DNA of 19,497 nucleotides from a virus, in UHGV virus genome UHGV-0127427, one strand, 5' to 3'. A program made the translations under genes and the position numbers. The notes under the pieces are model-generated. The model did not search any database, was not told the DNA's origin, and saw nothing but the letters and a program-made list of their open reading frames with translations. Positions 6,099 through 19,227 of this stretch are shown in pieces (the stretch's first letter is position 1; each line of letters starts with the position of its first letter).

Positions 6099-6204
6099 GA
6101 TAGATATTTTGTTTATCGCTAATCACATTTTTTCACTTCAGTACCTGTGTGCTATACTCCTTCTTGATTGATTGGATGCGGAATACAAACCCGCTCTTTT
6201 GTGC

Positions 6205-6232
6205 AGCCTGGCTCCTTGCCAGGCTTTTTTTT
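6205..6232 (+). terminator. plus-strand intrinsic terminator (AGCCUGGC-UCCUU-GCCAGGCU followed by U8)
   Basis: 8-bp GC-rich stem, 5-nt loop and a run of 8 T on the plus strand; no plus-strand CDS upstream, so it probably ends a short non-coding transcript. Confidence 0.5.
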
Positions 6233-6542
6233 ATTTCATCATGGAAGTTGTTAACGCTTTGGACCTTGCTGAACTGATTGAGAGGGCTTTGTCAACGTGC
6301 CCCAAAAATTCGCCAAACTCAGACATCACTTTAGCAAAACCGCGCCGTGCTTCTTCCTCGGTGGCATTCATCACGAAATGTTCAGCACCACGCATACTTT
6401 TGACAGGGAACGCAACGGATATTGAATCAATATCAGGCATTCTATCGCTCAGCTTTACAGTGACAATGACGGCTGGCGACTGAATATTAGTGCTTACAGA
6501 CAGCACTACATATTTTCCGTCGATGTTGAAATCCTTTCTCAC
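6231..6542 (-). CDS. Cra-like hypothetical protein (cre-associated position); start uncertain (GTG 6542 or ATG 6440)
   Basis: ORF immediately downstream of cre on the same strand with protein-like composition (EEEARRGFAKVMSEFGEFLGHVDKAL); no strong RBS at either start. Confidence 0.4.
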   Translation of the reverse strand: MRKDFNIDGKYVVLSVSTNIQSPAVIVTVKLSDRMPDIDSISVAFPVKSMRGAEHFVMNATEEEARRGFAKVMSEFGEFLGHVDKALSISSARSKALTTSMMK

Positions 6543-7853: not shown

Positions 7854-7950
7854 TTTTCACCTCTGATTGATTGGTGGTGCTAAGTGCGCTACGCGAAATC
7901 TGGAGCACTAACACTGCCAACATTTCGCAGATTTTACGTAGCGCAACCTT

Positions 7951-8777: not shown

Positions 8778-9629
8778 ATGATAAATTATGTCTACGGCGA
8801 ACAACTGTACCAGGAGTTCGTCAGCTTCAGGGATCTCTTTCTAAAAAAAGCTGTTGCACGCGCCCAACACGTTGATGCCGCCAGCGACGGTCGTCCTGTT
8901 CGCCCGGTTGTCGTTCTGCCGTTCAAAGAAACGGACAGCATTCAGGCTGAAATTGATAAATGGACTTTAATGGCGCGGGAACTGGAACAGTACCCAGACC
9001 TCAATATCCCAAAGACTATTTTATATCCAGTGCCTAACATCCTTCGCGGTGTACGTAAGGTTACAACTTATCAGACAGAAGCTGTGAACAGCGTCAACAT
9101 GACCGCTGGCCGCATTATTCATCTGATTGATAAGGATATTCGCATCCAAAAAAGCGCGGGGTTCAATGAGCACAGTGCGAAATACATAGAGAACCTGGAA
9201 GCAACAAAAGAGCTAATGAAGCAGTACCCGGAGGATGAAAAATTCCGTATGCGCGTACACGGCTTTAGCGAAACAATGCTGCGCGTCCACTACATTTCCA
9301 GTAGCCCTAACTACAATGATGGTAAATCAGTTAGTTACCATGTGCCACTGTGTGGCGTGTTTATCTGCGATGAAACCCTCCGTGATGGAATCATCATCAA
9401 CGGTGAATTCGAGAAAGCAAAATTTAGCCTTTATGACTCCATAGAACCGATCATCTGCGACCGCTGGCCGCAGGCAAAAATATATCGCCTGGCAGATATT
9501 GAAAATGTAAAAAAACAAATTGCCATCACTCGCGAAGAGAAAAAGGTCAAATCAGCCGCATCAGTTACGCGCAGTCGTAAAACTAAGAAGGGGCAGCCAG
9601 TAAACGACAACCCCGAAAGCGCGCAATAA
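8778..9629 (+). CDS. c1: C1 repressor of lysis, 283 aa
   Basis: 283-aa ORF starting MINYVYGEQLYQEFVSFRDLF behind GGAGGAGG; matches P1 C1 in length and N-terminus as recalled; multiple cognate operators in the window. Confidence 0.95.
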   Translation: MINYVYGEQLYQEFVSFRDLFLKKAVARAQHVDAASDGRPVRPVVVLPFKETDSIQAEIDKWTLMARELEQYPDLNIPKTILYPVPNILRGVRKVTTYQTEAVNSVNMTAGRIIHLIDKDIRIQKSAGFNEHSAKYIENLEATKELMKQYPEDEKFRMRVHGFSETMLRVHYISSSPNYNDGKSVSYHVPLCGVFICDETLRDGIIINGEFEKAKFSLYDSIEPIICDRWPQAKIYRLADIENVKKQIAITREEKKVKSAASVTRSRKTKKGQPVNDNPESAQ

Positions 9630-9632
9630 ATT

Positions 9633-9654
9633 ATGCCCGGCATCAACCGGGCAT
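9633..9654. terminator. hairpin between convergent c1 and the antirepressor-like gene (possible bidirectional terminator)
   Basis: ATGCCCGG-CATCAA-CCGGGCAT, 8-bp stem, 4 nt after the c1 stop; flanks are only moderately T-rich. Confidence 0.45.
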
Positions 9655-9661
9655 TCTTCCA

Positions 9662-10429
9662 TTATTCAGCCGCCACCGGTTTTAACAAGCCAGCATCGAG
9701 CAGTTTACGCGTCAACCACTGTTGTCCTTTCCCCGTTAATTGGGGCGTCAGCCGTATCTGGTAGCCATCTTCATCATCCAGCACCACTTCTTTCACTGTG
9801 AAATATCCGGCGTTTATGTACTGCTGGAACGGCACATTTTTACGCCCGCCGGACGCTATCAGAATGCCGTTCTCCCGTAACCAGGCAAACAGCGCGTTTT
9901 GCTTCAGCCCAACAACCTTTGCAAAATTACCAATCAGGATCCCCTTAGCCACTGATACACGGTCGGCAAAATCGACCTTGGGGGCTGCGGCCACCAGTTG
10001 TTGATTTAGCTGGTGGGCCTTCTGTTCCAGTAGCTGCTTTTGTTCAGCCAGCTCGGCAGCCAGGCGCAAGGCTTCAGGTAGTGTTTGGGGGATTGCGACC
10101 GGTTGCTGTTCTTTTTGCCGGAAGTAGCTGTCTTCCAGTTTTTCAAAGAATGCCCATGCTTCATCTGTGTTTACGATCTTAGACATGCGTGCCGCTCCGC
10201 GTTCGGCCCAAAGAATTACCTGGCTTGTATATTTGCTAACCAGGTGACTAGTAGTCACCAGCCTTTTAAATTCCTTTAATTTTGAACCAGTTAAGAGATA
10301 GTAATGCTTACCTTCTTCAAAGCGATCGGAGTTGCGAGACAAATTTTTACGAATATTAGCTTCATCGGTTCCATAAGCGCAGATAAACATCGCGCTTATC
10401 GACATCCAGATGCGGGTATTCCTTTTCAA
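9662..10429 (-). CDS. phage antirepressor-like protein (ORF6N-type N-terminal region plus KilA-C/ANT-type C-terminal region); start uncertain (TTG 10429 or ATG 10405)
   Basis: N-terminal half AYGTDEANIRKNLSRNSDRFEEGKHYYLLTGSKLKEF...ILWAERGAARMSK and C-terminal half DRVSVAKGILIGNFAKVVGLKQNALFAWLRENGILIASGGRKNVPFQQYINAGYF are typical of phage antirepressors; sits where P1 has pacB/pacA/lpa. Confidence 0.65.
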   Translation of the reverse strand: MKRNTRIWMSISAMFICAYGTDEANIRKNLSRNSDRFEEGKHYYLLTGSKLKEFKRLVTTSHLVSKYTSQVILWAERGAARMSKIVNTDEAWAFFEKLEDSYFRQKEQQPVAIPQTLPEALRLAAELAEQKQLLEQKAHQLNQQLVAAAPKVDFADRVSVAKGILIGNFAKVVGLKQNALFAWLRENGILIASGGRKNVPFQQYINAGYFTVKEVVLDDEDGYQIRLTPQLTGKGQQWLTRKLLDAGLLKPVAAE

Positions 10430-10556
10430 GAATTGCTGCGAGTTCTTTCGCTGATAGAAGAGATTTAGTGCGGATCATGTAATCCGCAATCTCGTACGAT
10501 GTTATTCGTGAGTGATTTATTTCCATGAAGTGGCGTCCCTGCCAGTTAAGTAACAT
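10362..10556 (-). CDS. hypothetical 64-aa protein overlapping the 5' end of the antirepressor-like gene in another frame
   Basis: ATG 10556 preceded by AGGTGA at 4-nt spacing; ends within the first codons of the antirepressor ORF; could be a real leader gene or the product of a frameshift. Confidence 0.35.
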   Translation of the reverse strand: MLLNWQGRHFMEINHSRITSYEIADYMIRTKSLLSAKELAAILEKEYPHLDVDKRDVYLRLWNR

Positions 10557-10626
10557 CCTGTCACCTACTGATTAGCCCATGTCAACTAATCAACGTCGAA
10601 TATAATACCCTCGATTAAAGAAATAG

Positions 10627-10643
10627 CAATACATTAGAGCAAT
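10627..10643 (-). promoter_or_regulatory. C1 operator-like site upstream of the 64-aa/antirepressor unit
   Basis: Minus-strand sense ATTGCTCTAATGTATTG (14/17) beginning 1 nt after the pdcB-like stop; TTGCTA-16 bp-TATTAT promoter-like hexamers overlap it. Confidence 0.55.
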
Positions 10644-10644
10644 T

Positions 10645-11691
10645 TTATCTAACGCTCGACGAATGACTTGTGATAGCGCCGACTCCAAGCGCGTAATCAA
10701 AGAACAATCGTTGATGCATCGCCAGCCTACCGTGCGTCTTCTCCCAATTATCGCGGTCACGCTCAATATCACGCTGGCATGACTGGCACAGAGGAATAGC
10801 ATAAATGTCATGCGCGCATAATCGACTATAACGAACGATATAAGGCGTAATGTGAGCGCCAGCTCCCGCCGCTCCACACCCACAGCATGGACGGGAAGCA
10901 ACAAAGTCCATGTACTCAGGTAATTTTAGCGATTGCAGTTTTGGTATTTTGAAATGCGCCATACCTGGGTCGGAGTCAACATCCACAGGGCATACTTTTG
11001 CACGCATCGGCGCGGCGCGTTCTTCCATCATCTGAACATATGCTGTAGCGCGATCGTCATACGGGCGAATATCCGCCTCTTTCAGTGGTCCGCTATCCTG
11101 CGGAGTAGCCTTCATCTTATTTATTATTGATATGCGGCAGACTTCTTCCGGCATCAGGTGCATCATGTTGCGCATGAAAGCCCACCAGCACAGCTCCTGA
11201 ATACTTAAATCATGGCTATTTGAAAGGCCCATTTCCTGACGGGCGACATCCAGTATCCAGTTAACGCGATTATTGTGCAGCGTTTCTTTCAGCTCATTAA
11301 AACCACGCATCCGGTAATGGTTATCGTGATGCCAGCACAACAACACCGCGCTATTGTCTCGTTCAGCGTGGACAATATGGTTGTCACACCAACTACGATC
11401 TGCGGCCTGGCATTGACCCTCTTTCCTACGCAACCACGCCACCAGCGCGTCAATTCCACCAATACGGCGAAACAGTTCATCGCTGTTAAAAAACGGCTGC
11501 AACGCCTCATTTGTTGCCATGGTTTGCTCGGTAACAACGAGGCCGTCTTCCATGTGCTCGATTAACTCACGCGGCACCGGCTCCATAATAAATTTACGGC
11601 CAGCCTCCACCAGCTTTCTGACCTCCTGATCCACTTTGAACGTGGCGAGGCCAAGCTCTTTCTGTACAAAGGGAGTAATTACGGCTTTCAC
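10645..11691 (-). CDS. pdcB: PdcB-like protein (post-doc gene B position), 348 aa, GTG start, Cys-rich C-terminal region
   Basis: GTG 11691 preceded by AAGGTG at 4 nt; C-terminal CCGCG...C..C..C..C cluster suggests metal binding; assignment by position downstream of doc. Confidence 0.5.
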
Positions 11692-11718
11692 ATCACACCT
11701 TTAATCACTGATTGGGCT

Positions 11719-12684: not shown

Positions 12685-12966
12685 TCACGCCTCTTTCTTC
12701 CCGGTGCTTAAATCCTCCAGGTGCTGGCGCGGATACTTTCGGTATCTCTTTATGCGATATTCACCCTCCATAGCGCACACAAGCAGCGAACCATCAACTG
12801 GAGTAAGCGAAGAATCAACCACCAGCAAAGCACCCTGCAATATTCCCTCACGGTGATGGCTATCAGCTGCCCGCATGAAGTAGGTTGCTGATGGATGTCT
12901 AATTATCTGCTGATCAAGAGAAATTCGGCTTTCAACATAATCCGCCGCAGGAGAAGGGAAACCCAT
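12685..12966 (-). CDS. humD: HumD, UmuD'-like translesion synthesis accessory protein, 93 aa
   Basis: ORF upstream of phd-doc on the same strand with a UmuD'-like C-terminal region; GAGGT before the ATG; LexA box 19 bp upstream. Confidence 0.8.
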   Translation of the reverse strand: MGFPSPAADYVESRISLDQQIIRHPSATYFMRAADSHHREGILQGALLVVDSSLTPVDGSLLVCAMEGEYRIKRYRKYPRQHLEDLSTGKKEA

Positions 12967-16465: not shown

Positions 16466-16603
16466 TCACGGACTTCGTTGCTTTCCAGTTCTGCTATCCA
16501 TAAAAATGAAATGGACGCTAACGCCAGCTTTTCGCTGTGCTTCCATCAGATGAACGAGATAAGCCGATGTTCGTCCACCTGAAAAGCTGACGACTTGATG
16601 CAT
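16466..16603 (-). pseudogene. 5' remnant of a PP-loop (PAPS-reductase-like) gene, 45 codons then stop
   Basis: Encodes MHQVVSFSGGRTSAYLVHLM... carrying the SGGxxS PP-loop signature, but terminates after 45 codons; the remainder of such a ~250-aa domain is absent. Confidence 0.4.
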
Positions 16604-16612
16604 ACTCACGGT

Positions 16613-17191
16613 TTATTCCTGAATGCGCTTAAACTCGATTACCCATACCAACGGGTTAGATAGCCAGTTATCCTGCCCGTAAATACTGCGCCAGATATCA
16701 CCAAAACCAACGCGATAAACAGCTTCAGATGGCGTAATCTTGTACGTCGCCGGAGTTGCGCCTTCTGCTTTAGCATCTTCCTCGCTCATGTCATGCAGCC
16801 GTTCCACACGCACGTCGGTAATTTCCAAAAGAATGCGCGATGCCCAGCGCGGCATGTGAATTGATGGCGTCCACTTTTCTGATACTGGTTTATTACAAAC
16901 CTCGACCGGAACCCGGTGCGTTTGTTCTGTCCAGGAGTTACGCACGCTTGCGCGATAAACCAGCGTTGCGACGTCCGTCGCTTTGCCATGTACCCGGTAG
17001 GTTTCGCGAACCCAAATACGATCGCCCGGTTGACCATATGGACAATGCTTGGCAAGCAACTCTGCGGCCACTGCCCGTCCATAGAATTTTTCTTCAACAA
17101 TCCTGCGAGTCTGTGTTTTATTCCCGCCAAGAATTGCCCGGACCATCTCATCGTTAAAAATCATGCCGCGCTCTTTCACTTCGCCTTTCAT
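16613..17191 (-). CDS. hypothetical protein with ASCH/PUA-like N-terminal motif, 192 aa
   Basis: N-terminal MIFNDEMVRAILGGNKTQTRRI resembles the ASCH-domain GxKxxExR signature; AGGGGGA precedes the ATG at 17191. Confidence 0.45.
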   Translation of the reverse strand: MKGEVKERGMIFNDEMVRAILGGNKTQTRRIVEEKFYGRAVAAELLAKHCPYGQPGDRIWVRETYRVHGKATDVATLVYRASVRNSWTEQTHRVPVEVCNKPVSEKWTPSIHMPRWASRILLEITDVRVERLHDMSEEDAKAEGATPATYKITPSEAVYRVGFGDIWRSIYGQDNWLSNPLVWVIEFKRIQE

Positions 17192-17200
17192 GCATCCCCC

Positions 17201-17287
17201 TTACCCATGTGCGACGATGCCGCCAAAAGTGATAGAGAACAGCCAGAAATAGATCGCGGCCATAATGATTTTGAATGCCGTGTTCAT
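17201..17287 (-). CDS. small hydrophobic peptide, 28 aa, translationally coupled to the downstream ASCH-like gene
   Basis: MNTAFKIIMAAIYFWLFSITFGGIVAHG; CAGGAG 8 nt upstream of the ATG; its stop overlaps the RBS of the next gene. Confidence 0.3.
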   Translation of the reverse strand: MNTAFKIIMAAIYFWLFSITFGGIVAHG

Positions 17288-17315
17288 ATTTTCAGCTCCT
17301 GTGATTGATTGGATA

Positions 17316-17346
17316 CATGCCGCGCCTTGCGGCATGTTTTTATTTT
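17316..17346 (+). terminator. plus-strand terminator-like hairpin (CAUGCCGC-GCCUU-GCGGCAUG followed by UUUUUAUUUU)
   Basis: 8-bp stem, 5-nt loop, T-rich tail on the plus strand, 4 nt after the GATTGATTGG motif; both flanking genes are on the minus strand. Confidence 0.4.
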
Positions 17347-17369
17347 CACTTTCTCTGTTTTAAAAATCA

Positions 17370-17386
17370 TTATTTATTAGAGCAAT
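17370..17386 (-). promoter_or_regulatory. C1 operator-like site upstream of the small-peptide/ASCH unit
   Basis: Minus-strand sense ATTGCTCTAATAAATAA (15/17), overlapping the stop of the HAD-like gene. Confidence 0.6.
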
Positions 17387-17892
17387 TATTGTTGATGGAG
17401 AAGCGCGTTTTCATACTCCCTGACCATTAACGTAAGCACGCCGTGCCTCCTGAAAACACGCGCCACTTCAATCTTATCTTCCAGCGCGAACGCAATTTTG
17501 CTTAGACCAATTTTCTTAAGGAGATCAATCTTTGCTGGACCGTCATTTCTGTCATCGGTGGCGGGACGCATAGATAGCAAAGGCTCTGCCCCATTTGTTA
17601 CGTGCTTACGCAACCAGGCTCGTGTTTTATCCCTGGCTATCTCACAGCGCCCGGTTACAAACCAGAGCGTGTAAATGCTGGACAACTGGCGCACCATATC
17701 AATAACTGGAGTGATGGAAGCATCAGTGTCACAGGCAAGGTTAAACTCGTTCCAGTGCTCTGTTAATGCACCGTTGCCAGGCGGTGGAAGTAAATGCAGC
17801 CTGTCTTCCGTTGCCTCCGATATCGTTCCATCAATATCTACTATGACAATGTACGGACGTTCCTGGTGTGCGTGTTTATTGAAAATACTCAA
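17386..17892 (-). CDS. HAD-superfamily phosphatase-like protein, 168 aa, TTG start
   Basis: HAD motif I DxDGT in IVIVDIDGTISEA; TTG start preceded by GAGGAGG at 4 nt; no ATG alternative nearby. Confidence 0.55.
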   Translation of the reverse strand: MSIFNKHAHQERPYIVIVDIDGTISEATEDRLHLLPPPGNGALTEHWNEFNLACDTDASITPVIDMVRQLSSIYTLWFVTGRCEIARDKTRAWLRKHVTNGAEPLLSMRPATDDRNDGPAKIDLLKKIGLSKIAFALEDKIEVARVFRRHGVLTLMVREYENALLHQQ

Positions 17893-17911: not shown

Positions 17912-17942
17912 AAAAAAATGCTGGTGGGCGCACTCCACCAGC
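17912..17942 (-). terminator. intrinsic terminator downstream of the 420-aa gene
   Basis: Minus-strand sense GCUGGUGG-AGUGCGC-CCACCAGC followed by AUUUUUUU. Confidence 0.5.
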
Positions 17943-17964
17943 ATTAAAAGTGACACTGTAACTA

Positions 17965-19227
17965 TCAGCGAACGTAAATAGTGCCGCCGTTCACTTTTTC
18001 CCATGCATCGCTAAGTGCATAGCAAACATCAAGAAGTCTTCTTGCCGCTGTTTCCTCTAAACCCAATTCGACAACCAACTGCTCATGACGGCGGGTAACC
18101 ACATCAAACAGGGTATGCAGCCCTTTAGCTGCCAGATCATCAATAAATTCCGGTTCGAACGGCAGCTCTGCATCTGCCAACATAACCTCTTGCGCCCACT
18201 CAACTCGACGGACCAGTTCCGGGCGGCGGCTTTCCATCTCTTTACAGATCAATTCATGGAAGAACTCTACCCAACCTTCCGGCTGGAACTCGCGGAAAAT
18301 TGCCAACGGCTGGAAGTTTGGCATCAACCATTCGTTGATTCGGATATCAATGGCATAGCCCATGTCGCAGCAGAACTGATAAGCAAAGTCCAGCTTAGAA
18401 ACGATATAAGGACGCTCGTTATTGAACTCTTTAGGCGATGAGATCCCATAAGCCAGGAGGCGCGGGAAGAATGAGATTTGCCCTAACGTCGGATGGAGTT
18501 TGCTTGCAGGAAAACGGCGCTCAGTAATGCCATACATTTCCTTCTTGAGCGTCGCAAATTTAGCATTTTCATTAACCAGCGCGGTAACCTCTGCTTTTTT
18601 ATTAGCAAATGCCACGCGCGCTTCGCTTGCATCTTTAATAGTTTTTTTGAGCTGTTGGTTAAGATCGGCGACCTGCTTACGCAGTTCCTGTCGCTCGCTT
18701 TTAGCTTTGTTATAGCGTTTCTCAAGGTTAAAAGGATCAAGTTTCATGATCTCTTTATATTGAGATTTTAGCGTTGAAATCTGTGAGTTCCGCAGTTCAA
18801 CCATCGCGGTCATTTCATTGAGTTTTGTTTCCAGCTCAATGCTTATACGTTCGGCATTATCAGCACGCTGGTTGGCGTCATGCGTCGCATCGTCGATCGC
18901 GTCCTGTTGCTGGCGTTTCAAATGTTCAATTTGCAGCTGAAGCTCTTCAATTTCTTTACCCTTCAGACCGAGATCCAACTGCATATTTTCAGCTGCATCT
19001 ACCAGGGAGTTATGGCTATCAGCTTCTGCGTTATAAACATCAATAAGCTGTGCGTGAAGCATCTCCGCTGACTGAACCGCATTATCAAAAAAACGCGCTG
19101 TGAGGTCATCACAACTAACGCGGCGTTGCGCGGCCCGGATGTTCTGGATAATGGCCGGGATACCGGCATTCAGGACGTCAGGGATAGATACATTTTCGAT
19201 TGATTGGTTTTGTGCTGAAGTGCTCAT
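17965..19227 (-). CDS. hypothetical protein, 420 aa, long central coiled coil plus globular C-terminal region
   Basis: ATG 19227 lies 1 nt after the upstream 72-aa ORF stop; central ~200 aa are heptad-rich (E/K/Q/L); no catalytic motif recognised. Confidence 0.55.
   Translation of the reverse strand: MSTSAQNQSIENVSIPDVLNAGIPAIIQNIRAAQRRVSCDDLTARFFDNAVQSAEMLHAQLIDVYNAEADSHNSLVDAAENMQLDLGLKGKEIEELQLQIEHLKRQQQDAIDDATHDANQRADNAERISIELETKLNEMTAMVELRNSQISTLKSQYKEIMKLDPFNLEKRYNKAKSERQELRKQVADLNQQLKKTIKDASEARVAFANKKAEVTALVNENAKFATLKKEMYGITERRFPASKLHPTLGQISFFPRLLAYGISSPKEFNNERPYIVSKLDFAYQFCCDMGYAIDIRINEWLMPNFQPLAIFREFQPEGWVEFFHELICKEMESRRPELVRRVEWAQEVMLADAELPFEPEFIDDLAAKGLHTLFDVVTRRHEQLVVELGLEETAARRLLDVCYALSDAWEKVNGGTIYVR

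What the first reader, a model, noticed from the sequence alone, without database searches (positions are those of the whole stretch)
17192..17346. 28-aa hydrophobic peptide whose RBS region faces an oppositely oriented terminator: type I toxin-antitoxin-like geometry
The 28-aa peptide gene (17201-17287, minus) has CCAATCAATCA-CAGGAG directly upstream. On the opposite strand the same region reads ...CUCCUGUGAUUGAUUGG followed by a plus-strand intrinsic terminator (17316-17346), although both neighbouring genes are on the minus strand. This is the arrangement expected if a short cis-antisense RNA covers the peptide's translation initiation region. Alternatively the hairpin is simply a 5'-UTR structure of the minus-strand operon.
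Basis: inference. Interest (0 to 1): 0.55.

Follow-up and report, generated by a model that had tools for sequence, protein, structure and literature searches.

The report
Phage P1 leader hairpin and peptide
The small hydrophobic peptide gene is real and conserved, but it is most likely not a toxin-antitoxin pair: it is the first gene of a repressor-controlled early operon of P1-type phage-plasmids, the hairpin belongs to its own mRNA leader, and a short motif next to its ribosome-binding site matches a candidate regulatory RNA encoded 11 kb away.

Summary
A 28-aa hydrophobic ORF (17287-17201, minus strand) has an AGGAG ribosome-binding site. Upstream is a 9-10 bp GC hairpin (17315-17337) that reads as a strong intrinsic terminator on the plus strand only.

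The window is a P1/P7-like phage-plasmid. The region is the pap-pmgT intergenic gap, which holds the C1 operator Op88 and the predicted pmgT promoters.

Diverged relatives (Cronobacter phage JK004 and nine metagenomic loci) keep the same order: operator, promoter, hairpin at the predicted transcript start, the CCAATCA(ATCA)C motif, ribosome-binding site, small ORF.
- The hairpin sequence changes between lineages with compensatory substitutions. Its G·U pairs mostly fit the mRNA strand.
- The plus-strand T-run is missing in most of these relatives.
- The ORF is 53 aa there, with dN/dS of 0.22-0.39.

No credible plus-strand promoter was found. The cis-antisense, type I toxin-antitoxin reading is therefore not supported.

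The motif occurs 3 times in P1 and 5 times in JK004 (0.03-0.05 expected), nearly always just before a start site. It is complementary to the 5' end of a conserved sRNA-like unit at window 6165-6233 (plus strand). That suggests control in trans; this is untested.

The parts
17386..17892 (-). pap (3'-phosphatase / polynucleotide kinase-phosphatase family), the upstream neighbour
   Evidence: Annotated as pap in P1 and P7. Some relatives (L273-L277) lack pap and still carry the module directly after pmgS.
17370..17386 (-). C1 repressor operator Op88 (OpmgT), ATTGCTCTAATAAATAA
   Evidence: Annotated in P1 AF234173 and in P7. The consensus scan finds 6 operators in the window against 0.1 expected. 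It is conserved in all diverged relatives.
17342..17370 (-). Predicted promoter P1pmgT: -35 ATGATT (TTGATT in most relatives), 17-nt spacer, -10 GAAAAT. A second predicted promoter, P2pmgT, is TTGCTC-17-TAAAAC at 17357-17385.
   Evidence: P1 GenBank annotation and my position-weight scan, about the 99th percentile. A promoter of the form TTGaTT-17-nAnAAT sits at the same place in relatives, ending 1-7 nt before the hairpin by my reading of the sequences. The transcription start has not been mapped.
17315..17337 (-). Leader stem-loop ACAUGCCGC-AAGGC-GCGGCAUGU at or within a few nt of the predicted 5' end of the mRNA
   Evidence: Fold results. A hairpin sits at the same position in every relative with a different sequence. 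Three pairs show compensatory changes; 81.5% of cells are paired against 22-61% in slid registers.
17338..17346 (+). T-run (TTTTATTTT) that makes the hairpin look like a plus-strand intrinsic terminator. It is the reverse complement of the A-rich -10/discriminator.
   Evidence: Present in the E. coli P1/P7 clade, partial in the JK004 clade, absent in the L268-L277 clade.
17302..17312 (-). Leader motif CCAATCAATCA, single-stranded, ending 1 nt before the ribosome-binding site
   Evidence: The exact 10-mer occurs 4 times in the window, all on the minus strand, against 0.04 expected. The exact 11-mer occurs 3 times in P1 and 5 times in JK004 against 0.03-0.05 expected. It is unpaired in the centroid fold and lies in the loop of a weak 3-bp helix in the MFE.
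17296..17300 (-). Shine-Dalgarno sequence AGGAG of the small ORF
   Evidence: Sequence. GGAG is invariant in all relatives. P(unpaired) is 0.3-0.5 for the SD and 0.83-0.95 for the AUG in the longer mRNA constructs, 0.37 in the shortest.
17201..17287 (-). Small ORF, 28 aa, single predicted transmembrane helix (GRAVY 1.3)
   Evidence: Intact in 254 of 261 locus entries. Orthologues of 53 aa in diverged relatives have dN/dS 0.22-0.39. M1, K6, A11 and W15 are invariant.
16613..17191 (-). Next cistron (ASCH-domain protein here, pmgT in P1), starting 9 nt after the small ORF stop
   Evidence: Its ribosome-binding site is mostly paired with small-ORF codons 17-18 (P unpaired 0.04-0.16), which is consistent with translational coupling.
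6130..6233 (+). Candidate trans-acting sRNA gene. Parts: -35 TTTTCA 6130-6135; extended -10 TGcTATACT 6150-6158; predicted +1 about 6165; 5' seed UGAUUGAUUGG 6165-6175; stem-loop 1 6178-6194; terminator 6205-6225; U8 tail to 6233.
   Evidence: Conserved in four lineages, with structure covariation and a G·U pair valid only on this strand. There is one copy per genome (89 and 81 bits). It does not reach any Rfam family's gathering score.
7864..7874 (-). Second copy of the motif, in the cra leader: long hairpin, CCAATCAATCA, GAGGTG, ATG 7853
19197..19207 (-). Third motif copy (CCAATCAATCG) inside codons 7-10 of pmgS
   Evidence: Also present at the same place in JK004 pmgS.

Best explanation
The region is the leader and first cistron of the C1-repressed early operon that starts at operator Op88 in P1-family phage-plasmids.

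Proposed mechanism, with shown and inferred steps marked:
1. When C1 repression is lifted, transcription starts a few nucleotides before or at the GC hairpin (inferred from promoter geometry).
2. The mRNA therefore begins with a stable stem-loop (shown as a conserved structure). This most likely protects it from 5'-end-dependent decay (inferred).
3. An unstructured CCAAUCAAUCA segment and a strong AGGAG site follow. They drive translation of a 28-aa single-pass membrane peptide (coding status shown by conservation; its function is unknown).
4. The peptide ORF ends 9 nt before the next gene, whose ribosome-binding site is occluded by small-ORF sequence. Translation of the peptide probably also opens the next cistron (inferred).

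The terminator look on the opposite strand arises because the A-rich -10/discriminator of the promoter abuts the hairpin. It is not the conserved feature.

The leader motif is probably a regulatory target. It is complementary to the 5' end of a conserved sRNA-like gene at window 6165-6233 (inferred, about 40% likely).
For: Identity of the region:
- It matches the pap-pmgT gap of P1 and P7, with Op88 and the predicted pmgT promoters annotated.

Conservation of the module:
- It is kept in Cronobacter phage JK004 (Pap 71% identical) and in nine metagenomic loci. In some of these it follows pmgS directly, without pap.

The hairpin:
- Its sequence differs between lineages: CATGCCGC, GGCCGC, AGCCGC, GGCAGTCAC, GGCGGTCGC.
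- Three pairs change on both sides. 81.5% of cells are paired against 22-61% in slid registers, and 6 of 500 shuffles reach the covariation score.
- Wobble-compatible single changes favour the mRNA strand 5 to 1.
- The plus-strand U-tail is absent in the L268-L277 clade.

The small ORF:
- It is intact in 254 of 261 locus entries and the peptide is identical in 199.
- Two independent cargo junctions fall at or within 7 nt after its stop codon.
- The 53-aa orthologues have dN/dS of 0.22-0.39.

No dedicated antisense promoter:
- No plus-strand promoter candidate rises above chance level.

The same leader plan recurs:
- Hairpin, motif, ribosome-binding site and ATG appear at cra, and at a second operator-controlled gene in JK004.
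Against: - No transcription start, transcript end or translation data exist for this region. The promoter and the 5'-terminal position of the hairpin are predictions.
- In the E. coli clade the plus-strand terminator motif is among the three best in the window. It is the first strong plus-strand terminator downstream of lxr in P1 and of convergent hsdR in about 30% of relatives, so it may work as a terminator there.
- Within the E. coli clade alone the coding signal is weak: 9 synonymous against 13 non-synonymous changes, p = 0.08.
- Homology between the 28-aa and 53-aa forms rests on synteny, the shared leader and four invariant residues.
- The 5-to-1 wobble count is not significant on its own (my one-sided estimate is about p = 0.11).
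Confidence: 0.65

Rival explanations
1. In the E. coli P1/P7 clade the hairpin plus T-run also works as a real, reverse-facing intrinsic terminator. It would stop transcription that leaves the variable cargo region (convergent hsdR, lxr or other plus-strand genes) before it runs antisense into pap-pmgS. Any such read-through RNA is automatically antisense to the peptide gene. This is compatible with the best explanation as an added function.
For: - The motif ranks in the top three of the window.
- The module lies at the edge of the known variable region: region 8 in PMC9603915 and RD-5 in PMC6906374.
- In about 30% of locus entries (79 of 254 classified), pmgT-humD is replaced by a convergent hsdRSM cassette. 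Its hsdR stop is about 80 nt from the small ORF stop, with no canonical terminator in between.
- In P1 no strong plus-strand terminator lies between lxr and this site.
Against: - The U-tail is not conserved in the diverged relatives, so this cannot be the ancestral function.
- lxr and the window's plus-strand ORFs are 2.5-3 kb away, where Rho would be expected to act first (established knowledge, not tested here).
- Hairpin variants that weaken the plus-strand stem are tolerated, also in hsd-carrying elements.
Confidence: 0.25
2. One reading: a dedicated short plus-strand RNA is made from a promoter inside or next to the peptide gene, ends at 17346, and masks the peptide's ribosome-binding site. 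Peptide and RNA form a type I toxin-antitoxin pair.
For: - The peptide is small and hydrophobic, and a strong plus-strand terminator faces it.
- Weak plus-strand promoter-like sites exist: ATGATT-16-TATTTT with a start near 17299, and CATAAT at 17261-17266 (and sequence).
- The plus strand at 17302-17345 is the best non-self hit in the window to the model of the candidate sRNA, at 20.2 bits, E about 0.1.
Against: - The promoter candidates score at about the 99th percentile, which is the number expected by chance among about 220 positions.
- There is no extended -10 like the one at the candidate sRNA gene (sequence).
- The terminator signature is lost in relatives that keep the hairpin and peptide.
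- The G·U pattern mostly favours the mRNA strand.
- The gene is the first cistron of a repressor-controlled operon, with a partly open ribosome-binding site and close coupling to the next gene.
- No toxin family matches.
- The element already carries phd-doc.
Confidence: 0.05
3. The small ORF matters only as a translated leader that opens the ribosome-binding site of the next gene by translational coupling. The peptide itself has no function.
For: - The next gene's ribosome-binding site is mostly paired with small-ORF codons (P unpaired 0.04-0.16) and lies 9 nt after the stop.
- In relatives the stop overlaps the next start as ATGA.
- Selection on the 28-aa sequence within the E. coli clade is weak.
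Against: - The hydrophobic pattern and four residues are kept across clades, and dN/dS is 0.22-0.39 in the 53-aa form.
- The intact ORF is retained in hsd-carrying elements, where no gene follows it on the same strand.
Confidence: 0.15

Closest known systems
5'-terminal stabilising stem-loops of bacterial and phage mRNAs (ompA 5' UTR; phage T7 gene 10 leader, which combines a stem-loop, an unstructured enhancer and a strong SD). From my own knowledge of the literature, not retrieved here.
   Same: - A GC hairpin sits at the predicted 5' end, followed by an unstructured A/C-rich segment and a strong Shine-Dalgarno sequence.
- The structure is conserved while its sequence drifts.
   Different: - The 5' end is not mapped.
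- The unstructured segment is a specific 11-nt motif repeated across the genome, which generic leaders do not have.
Type I toxin-antitoxin systems (hok/sok, ibs/sib, tisB/istR-1, shoB/ohsC)
   Same: - A peptide under 60 aa with one hydrophobic helix.
- An RNA-level complementarity next to the ribosome-binding site is possible.
   Different: - There is no dedicated antisense promoter.
- The gene sits in a repressor-controlled polycistronic operon.
- The ribosome-binding site is only partly occluded.
- No family match was found, and toxicity is untested.
Phage antisense regulators of translation start sites: P22 sar, lambda OOP, P1/P7 C4 (C4 is cited in PMC8201110; the others are from my own knowledge)
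   Same: A small phage RNA that pairs at or near a ribosome-binding site to hold back early or lytic functions. This is what the candidate sRNA at 6165-6233 would do.
   Different: - The candidate is encoded 11 kb from this target.
- It has at least three potential targets sharing one motif.
- It matches no Rfam family, including C4.
Small membrane proteins of enterobacteria and their phages (for example KdpF, YohP, AcrZ, MgtS; from my own knowledge)
   Same: A single transmembrane helix of 20-50 aa, a strong SD, and often missed by annotation.
   Different: No sequence relation was found. The family is restricted to P1-like elements.

Membership tests
Type I toxin-antitoxin system | Small (<60 aa) hydrophobic, membrane-targeted peptide | tested here: met
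   28 aa, GRAVY 1.3, core residues 7-25 score 2.1.
Type I toxin-antitoxin system | Antitoxin RNA gene with its own promoter, overlapping or adjacent to the toxin gene | tested here: not met
   A terminator motif is present. No plus-strand promoter rises above chance, and the terminator signature is not conserved in relatives. Sequence scans cannot exclude a weak promoter.
Type I toxin-antitoxin system | Toxin mRNA that is translationally inert or strongly structured around its ribosome-binding site | tested here: not met
   P(unpaired) is 0.3-0.5 for the SD and 0.83-0.95 for the AUG in the longer constructs, 0.37 in the shortest. The leader between hairpin and SD is unpaired in the centroid fold.
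Type I toxin-antitoxin system | Stand-alone locus rather than a cistron of a regulated operon | tested here: not met
   It is the first cistron behind C1 operator Op88, 9 nt from the next gene.
Type I toxin-antitoxin system | Toxicity of the peptide, neutralised by the RNA | not testable with these tools
   Needs expression experiments.
Type I toxin-antitoxin system | Sequence membership in a known toxin family (Hok, Ldr, Ibs, ShoB, TisB, DinQ, Zor and others) | tested here: not met
   No Pfam or NCBIfam match, and only a non-significant PHROG match at E 0.16. The PADLOC library was not searched.
Rho-independent terminator (plus strand) | GC-rich stem-loop directly followed by a U-tract | tested here: met
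   10 pairs, 6 of them GC, tail TTTTATTTTC. Among the top three of the window.
Rho-independent terminator (plus strand) | The signature is kept in relatives and placed after a transcription unit on that strand | tested here: not met
   The U-tract is absent in the L268-L277 clade and only partial in the JK004 clade. No plus-strand gene ends here in the window or in P1. A convergent hsdR lies nearby only in the hsd-carrying class.
5'-leader stabilising stem-loop | Conserved secondary structure on the mRNA strand with covariation | tested here: met
   Three pairs with changes on both sides; 81.5% of cells paired against 22-61% in slid registers. There is a hairpin in every lineage, -10 to -20 kcal/mol.
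5'-leader stabilising stem-loop | The stem begins within a few nt of the mRNA 5' end and lengthens mRNA half-life | not testable with these tools
   Only predicted promoters are available. The -10 ends 1-7 nt before the stem in all lineages by my reading of the sequences. Needs 5'-end mapping and decay assays.
Protein-coding small ORF | Purifying selection, conserved start context, no frame disruption | tested here: met
   dN/dS is 0.22-0.39 among the 53-aa orthologues. The ORF is intact in 254 of 261 entries, and GGAG plus AATATG are invariant. Within the E. coli clade alone the test is inconclusive (p = 0.08).
Trans-acting base-pairing sRNA (candidate at 6165-6233, plus strand) | Own promoter and Rho-independent terminator with a U-tail | tested here: met
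   The extended -10 TGnTATACT is invariant in four lineages, 6-7 nt before the seed. The terminator helix is 100% paired with one compensatory pair and one G·U pair. Expression itself is untested.
Trans-acting base-pairing sRNA (candidate at 6165-6233, plus strand) | Conserved single-stranded seed complementary to target translation start regions | tested here: met
   The seed is unpaired in all three folds. It gives 11-13 bp perfect matches to the small-ORF and cra leaders, which rank 3rd and 5th of 35,330 windows in P1. The flank co-varies between clades: GGAU with AUCC, and GGCU with AGCC.
Trans-acting base-pairing sRNA (candidate at 6165-6233, plus strand) | Detected transcript, Hfq binding, regulation of targets | not testable with these tools
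   No data were found in the searchable literature.

The most novel reading that the evidence does not exclude
Phage P1 and its relatives encode a previously undescribed trans-acting sRNA of about 68 nt, between c8 and ref on the opposite strand (window 6165-6233, plus strand). Its 5'-terminal seed GAUUGAUUGG pairs with the CCAAUCAAUC motif placed just upstream of the ribosome-binding sites of several genes. Candidate targets are the small membrane peptide with the pmgT operon, cra-cre, pmgS, and two more genes in JK004. This would add a second, post-transcriptional layer of control over C1-regulated functions. If the peptide is harmful to the host, the pair would act as a trans-encoded type I-like toxin-antitoxin module.
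Probability: 0.4. Interest if true: 0.75.

Novelty: new member of a known kind. Interest (0 to 1): 0.5.

Why it matters

- **An unannotated gene.** The reference P1 and P7 records carry no gene here. Adding a conserved small membrane protein as the first product of the Op88 operon corrects the map of a model genome.
- **A caution for annotation.** A hairpin at a transcript start, placed next to an A-rich -10 region, mimics an orphan terminator on the other strand. This is a useful warning for sequence-only calls of antisense RNAs and type I toxin-antitoxin systems.
- **A possible new regulatory layer.** If the repeated leader motif and the candidate sRNA prove functional, P1 would have a second RNA regulator besides C4. 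It would coordinate several early genes, and this could be tested directly with seed and target compensatory mutations.

Tried and rejected
- **Rfam.** Nothing reached gathering score in the whole window. Only sub-threshold hits appeared around the finding (GcvB 20.3 bits against 42) and around the candidate sRNA (SorX 22.6 against 46.6).
- **Distant peptide homologues.** The 44-aa form returned only near-identical P1-like sequences.
- **Protein families.** Pfam, NCBIfam and PHROGs gave nothing significant for the 28-, 44- and 53-aa forms.
- **Literature.** I searched for pmgT, Op88, P1 transcriptomes, the peptide sequence, the motif and the sRNA sequence. Nothing bore on this locus. The P1 genome paper (PMC523184) was not available.
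- **16S rRNA pairing of the motif.** The best duplex was -10.3 kcal/mol against -9.4 ± 1.6 for shuffled motifs, so this was rejected.
- **The 130-aa plus-strand ORF 16916-17308**, which ends just before the hairpin. I rejected it because its upstream half is not shared with P1 and its frame shows no excess of synonymous changes.
- **The plus strand at 17302-17345 as a paralogue of the candidate sRNA.** It scores only 20.2 bits (E about 0.1), and by inspection I found no extended -10 of the kind seen at the sRNA gene. Not accepted.
- **More diverged relatives.** Two further viral-contig scans found nothing.
- **Seed and target co-variation within single contigs.** Too few loci hold both sites.

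Full report
**What is there.** The minus strand of 17150-17450 reads, in order:
- the end of pap;
- ATTGCTCTAATAAATAA;
- an A/T-rich stretch ending GTGAAAATAAAAA;
- the hairpin ACATGCCGC-AAGGC-GCGGCATGT (17337-17315);
- AT;
- CCAATCAATCA;
- C, then AGGAG;
- 8 nt, then an ATG-to-TAA ORF of 28 codons (17287-17201);
- 9 nt, then the ATG of a 192-aa gene.

The hairpin is stable on either strand, with 0 of 200 shuffles as stable. Only on the plus strand is it followed by a T-run. As a terminator motif it is among the three best of the whole window.

**Where it comes from.** The window is a P1/P7-like phage-plasmid. The stretch is 99.9% identical to an E. coli plasmid, and 96-97% identical to P1 from window position 17136 onward. 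In the annotated P1 and P7 genomes this is the pap-pmgT gap. The 17-mer is the C1 repressor operator Op88, and two sigma-70 promoters for pmgT are predicted right after it. A consensus scan finds six C1 operators in the window against 0.1 expected, including this one. The small ORF is not annotated in the P1 or P7 records I inspected. A few other records call it, or a 44-aa extension of it, a hypothetical or membrane protein.

**Variation among close relatives.** I collected 261 locus entries that carry the ORF, with some contigs fetched twice.
- The peptide is identical in 199 entries, and the ORF is intact in 254.
- Synonymous against non-synonymous segregating changes are 9 to 13, where 25% synonymous is expected (p = 0.08). 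This leans towards coding but is not decisive.
- The 44-aa extension is broken by a 2-nt loop insertion and a 4-nt deletion in relatives, so the 28-aa form is the unit.
- Stem variants are rare. Three single changes keep a G·U pair only on the mRNA strand, one only on the plus strand, and two break both.

**What lies downstream.** It falls into classes.
- In about two thirds of entries the next gene (pmgT or the ASCH gene) starts 9 nt after the stop.
- In about 30%, homology ends 7 nt after the stop, and the whole pmgT-humD block is replaced by a convergent type I restriction cassette (hsdRSM) followed by phd-doc.
- One entry breaks exactly at the stop codon.
- A few break inside the ORF.
- Copies next to hsdR on IncF plasmids are remnants truncated by IS1.

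Published comparisons already list pmgT-humD, or pap-lxr, as a variable hot spot (PMC9603915 and PMC6906374).

**Test of the cis-antisense model.**
- A simple consensus scan finds no plus-strand promoter near the ORF.
- In a position-weight scan the best plus-strand candidates sit at about the 99th percentile of the window. That is what about 220 positions give by chance.
- The peptide matches no Pfam, NCBIfam or PHROG family.
- The ribosome-binding site is only partly occluded in predicted mRNA folds. The next gene's site is mostly paired with small-ORF codons, which points to translational coupling.
- The element already carries phd-doc.

**Diverged relatives decide the strand.** Cronobacter phage JK004 (Pap 71% identical) and nine metagenomic loci (L268-L277) carry the same module.
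- The operator is kept.
- A promoter of the form TTGaTT-17-nAnAAT sits at the same place.
- A GC hairpin follows a few nucleotides later.
- Then come an A-rich spacer, CCAATCA(ATCA)C, GGAG, AATATG and a small ORF.
- In five loci pap is missing and the module follows pmgS directly.

The hairpin sequences differ between lineages. In a gap-free alignment of six of them, three pairs change on both sides and 81.5% of cells are paired against 22-61% in slid registers. Only 6 of 500 shuffles reach the covariation score. Two more G·U pairs are valid only on the mRNA strand, which brings the count to five against one.

The U-tract that makes the E. coli version look like a plus-strand terminator is partial in the JK004 clade. 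In the L268-L277 clade it is absent; the tail there reads AAAUGAUUC. The conserved feature is therefore a stem-loop in the mRNA leader. The terminator look comes from the A-rich -10/discriminator that abuts it in the E. coli clade.

**The peptide gene.** In the diverged lineages the ORF is 53 aa: the same N-terminal hydrophobic helix plus a hydrophilic tail. Its stop overlaps the next start (ATGA). Pairwise dN/dS among these is 0.22-0.39. M1, K6, A11 and W15 are invariant across both forms. This is a real gene family confined to P1-like elements. Its function is unknown.

**A possible added role for the terminator motif.** In hsd-carrying relatives there is no canonical terminator between the hsdR stop and the small ORF. 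Read-through would therefore cross the ORF in antisense and meet this hairpin. In P1 it is also the first strong plus-strand terminator after lxr. A clade-specific backstop function is therefore possible, but it cannot be the ancestral reason for the hairpin.

**The leader motif is a repeated element.** The exact 10-mer CCAATCAATC occurs four times in the window, all on the minus strand, against 0.04 expected. The exact 11-mer occurs three times in P1 and five times in JK004, against 0.03-0.05 expected, always on the gene-sense strand.
- At cra it follows a long hairpin and is followed by GAGGTG and the ATG.
- In JK004 another operator-controlled gene has the same hairpin, motif and ribosome-binding-site plan.
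- One copy lies in the first codons of pmgS in both phages.
- The motif shows no special complementarity to 16S rRNA.

**A candidate sRNA.** The remaining P1 copy lies between c8 and ref and is not a leader. No start codon follows its SD-like AAGGAG, and the ATG present in JK004 is ACG in a close relative. Read on the other strand, window 6130-6233 (plus) has the following parts:
- an extended -10 promoter, TGcTATACT;
- six to seven nucleotides later, UGAUUGAUUGG;
- a small stem-loop;
- a U-rich linker;
- a strong terminator with a U8 tail.

This layout is kept in four lineages although the flanks diverge. In each fold the seed is single-stranded, with z scores of -2.9 to -3.3. In the alignment 94% of cells are paired against 27-59% in slid registers. 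The terminator shows one compensatory pair and one G·U pair that is valid only on this strand. A covariance model finds one strong copy per genome, at 89 and 81 bits. No Rfam family reaches its gathering score. No C1 operator overlaps the promoter.

The seed is perfectly complementary to 13 nt of the small-ORF leader in the E. coli clade, and to 12 nt in the JK004-type elements. The flanking base pair changes in step: GGAU with AUCC, and GGCU with AGCC. In a crude duplex scan of P1 the small-ORF and cra leaders rank 3rd and 5th of 35,330 windows. The flank match could also reflect common descent of repeated copies, so this part remains a hypothesis.

**Verdict.** The finding is a true structure with the wrong first label. 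It is best read as the promoter-proximal leader (stem-loop, motif, ribosome-binding site) and first cistron (a small membrane peptide) of the Op88 operon. The cis-antisense, type I toxin-antitoxin reading has about a 5% chance. RNA control of this translation start may still exist, exerted in trans by the candidate sRNA at 6165-6233. No transcript or toxicity data were available, so the start site, the stabilising role of the hairpin, translation of the peptide and the sRNA all need experiments.

Noticed in passing
window 6130-6233 (+): An sRNA-like unit between c8 and ref on the opposite strand. It has an extended -10 TGcTATACT, a 5' seed UGAUUGAUUGG, a stem-loop, and a strong terminator with a U8 tail. 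It is conserved in four lineages with structural covariation, and it matches no Rfam family.
   Followed up: yes
window 6165-6175, 7864-7874, 17302-17312, 19197-19207 (all - strand): The motif CCAATCAATC(A) is repeated four times on one strand against 0.04 expected. Three copies sit directly before SD-like sequences, two of which (cra and the small ORF) precede real start codons. It occurs 3 times in P1 and 5 times in Cronobacter phage JK004. It shows no complementarity to 16S rRNA.
   Followed up: yes
L086 3190-3280; L266 1-8100 (NZ_CP034786.1): In about 30% of P1-like relatives the pmgT-humD block is replaced by a convergent type I restriction-modification cassette (hsdRSM). The hsdR stop lies about 80 nt from the small ORF stop, with no canonical terminator in between.
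   Followed up: partly
L004 3950-4090, L005, L122: IncF plasmids carry the 3' part of the small ORF next to hsdR, truncated by an IS1 end at codon 3. One metagenomic locus (L122) has the IS1 end just before the ribosome-binding site instead. This looks like IS1-mediated capture of the hsd cassette from a P1-like element.
   Followed up: partly
window 17917-17945 (-): A strong intrinsic terminator (11-bp stem, T-run) lies between pmgS and pap. Expression of pap would therefore need read-through or a promoter of its own.
   Followed up: no
window 16466-16609 (-): A 47-aa ORF resembles the N-terminus of a PAPS reductase (pmgT-like) gene. The closest plasmid annotates this as an incomplete pseudogene, probably a remnant of cargo exchange.
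   Followed up: no
window 12685-12966 (-): The humD ORF is only 93 aa and covers positions 1-92 of the 129-position HumD profile, so it may be truncated.
   Followed up: no
window 9630-11700: A 255-aa ORF lies between pdcB (10645-11691) and c1 (8778-9629), where P1 has lpa-pacA-pacB. The closest plasmid has an Ant-like gene there. The element may be unable to activate late genes or to package DNA.
   Followed up: no
window 17136: Homology to P1 starts 55 nt inside the ASCH gene. P1 pmgT and this gene share their first 18 codons or so and then diverge, which marks a recombination joint inside a coding region.
   Followed up: no
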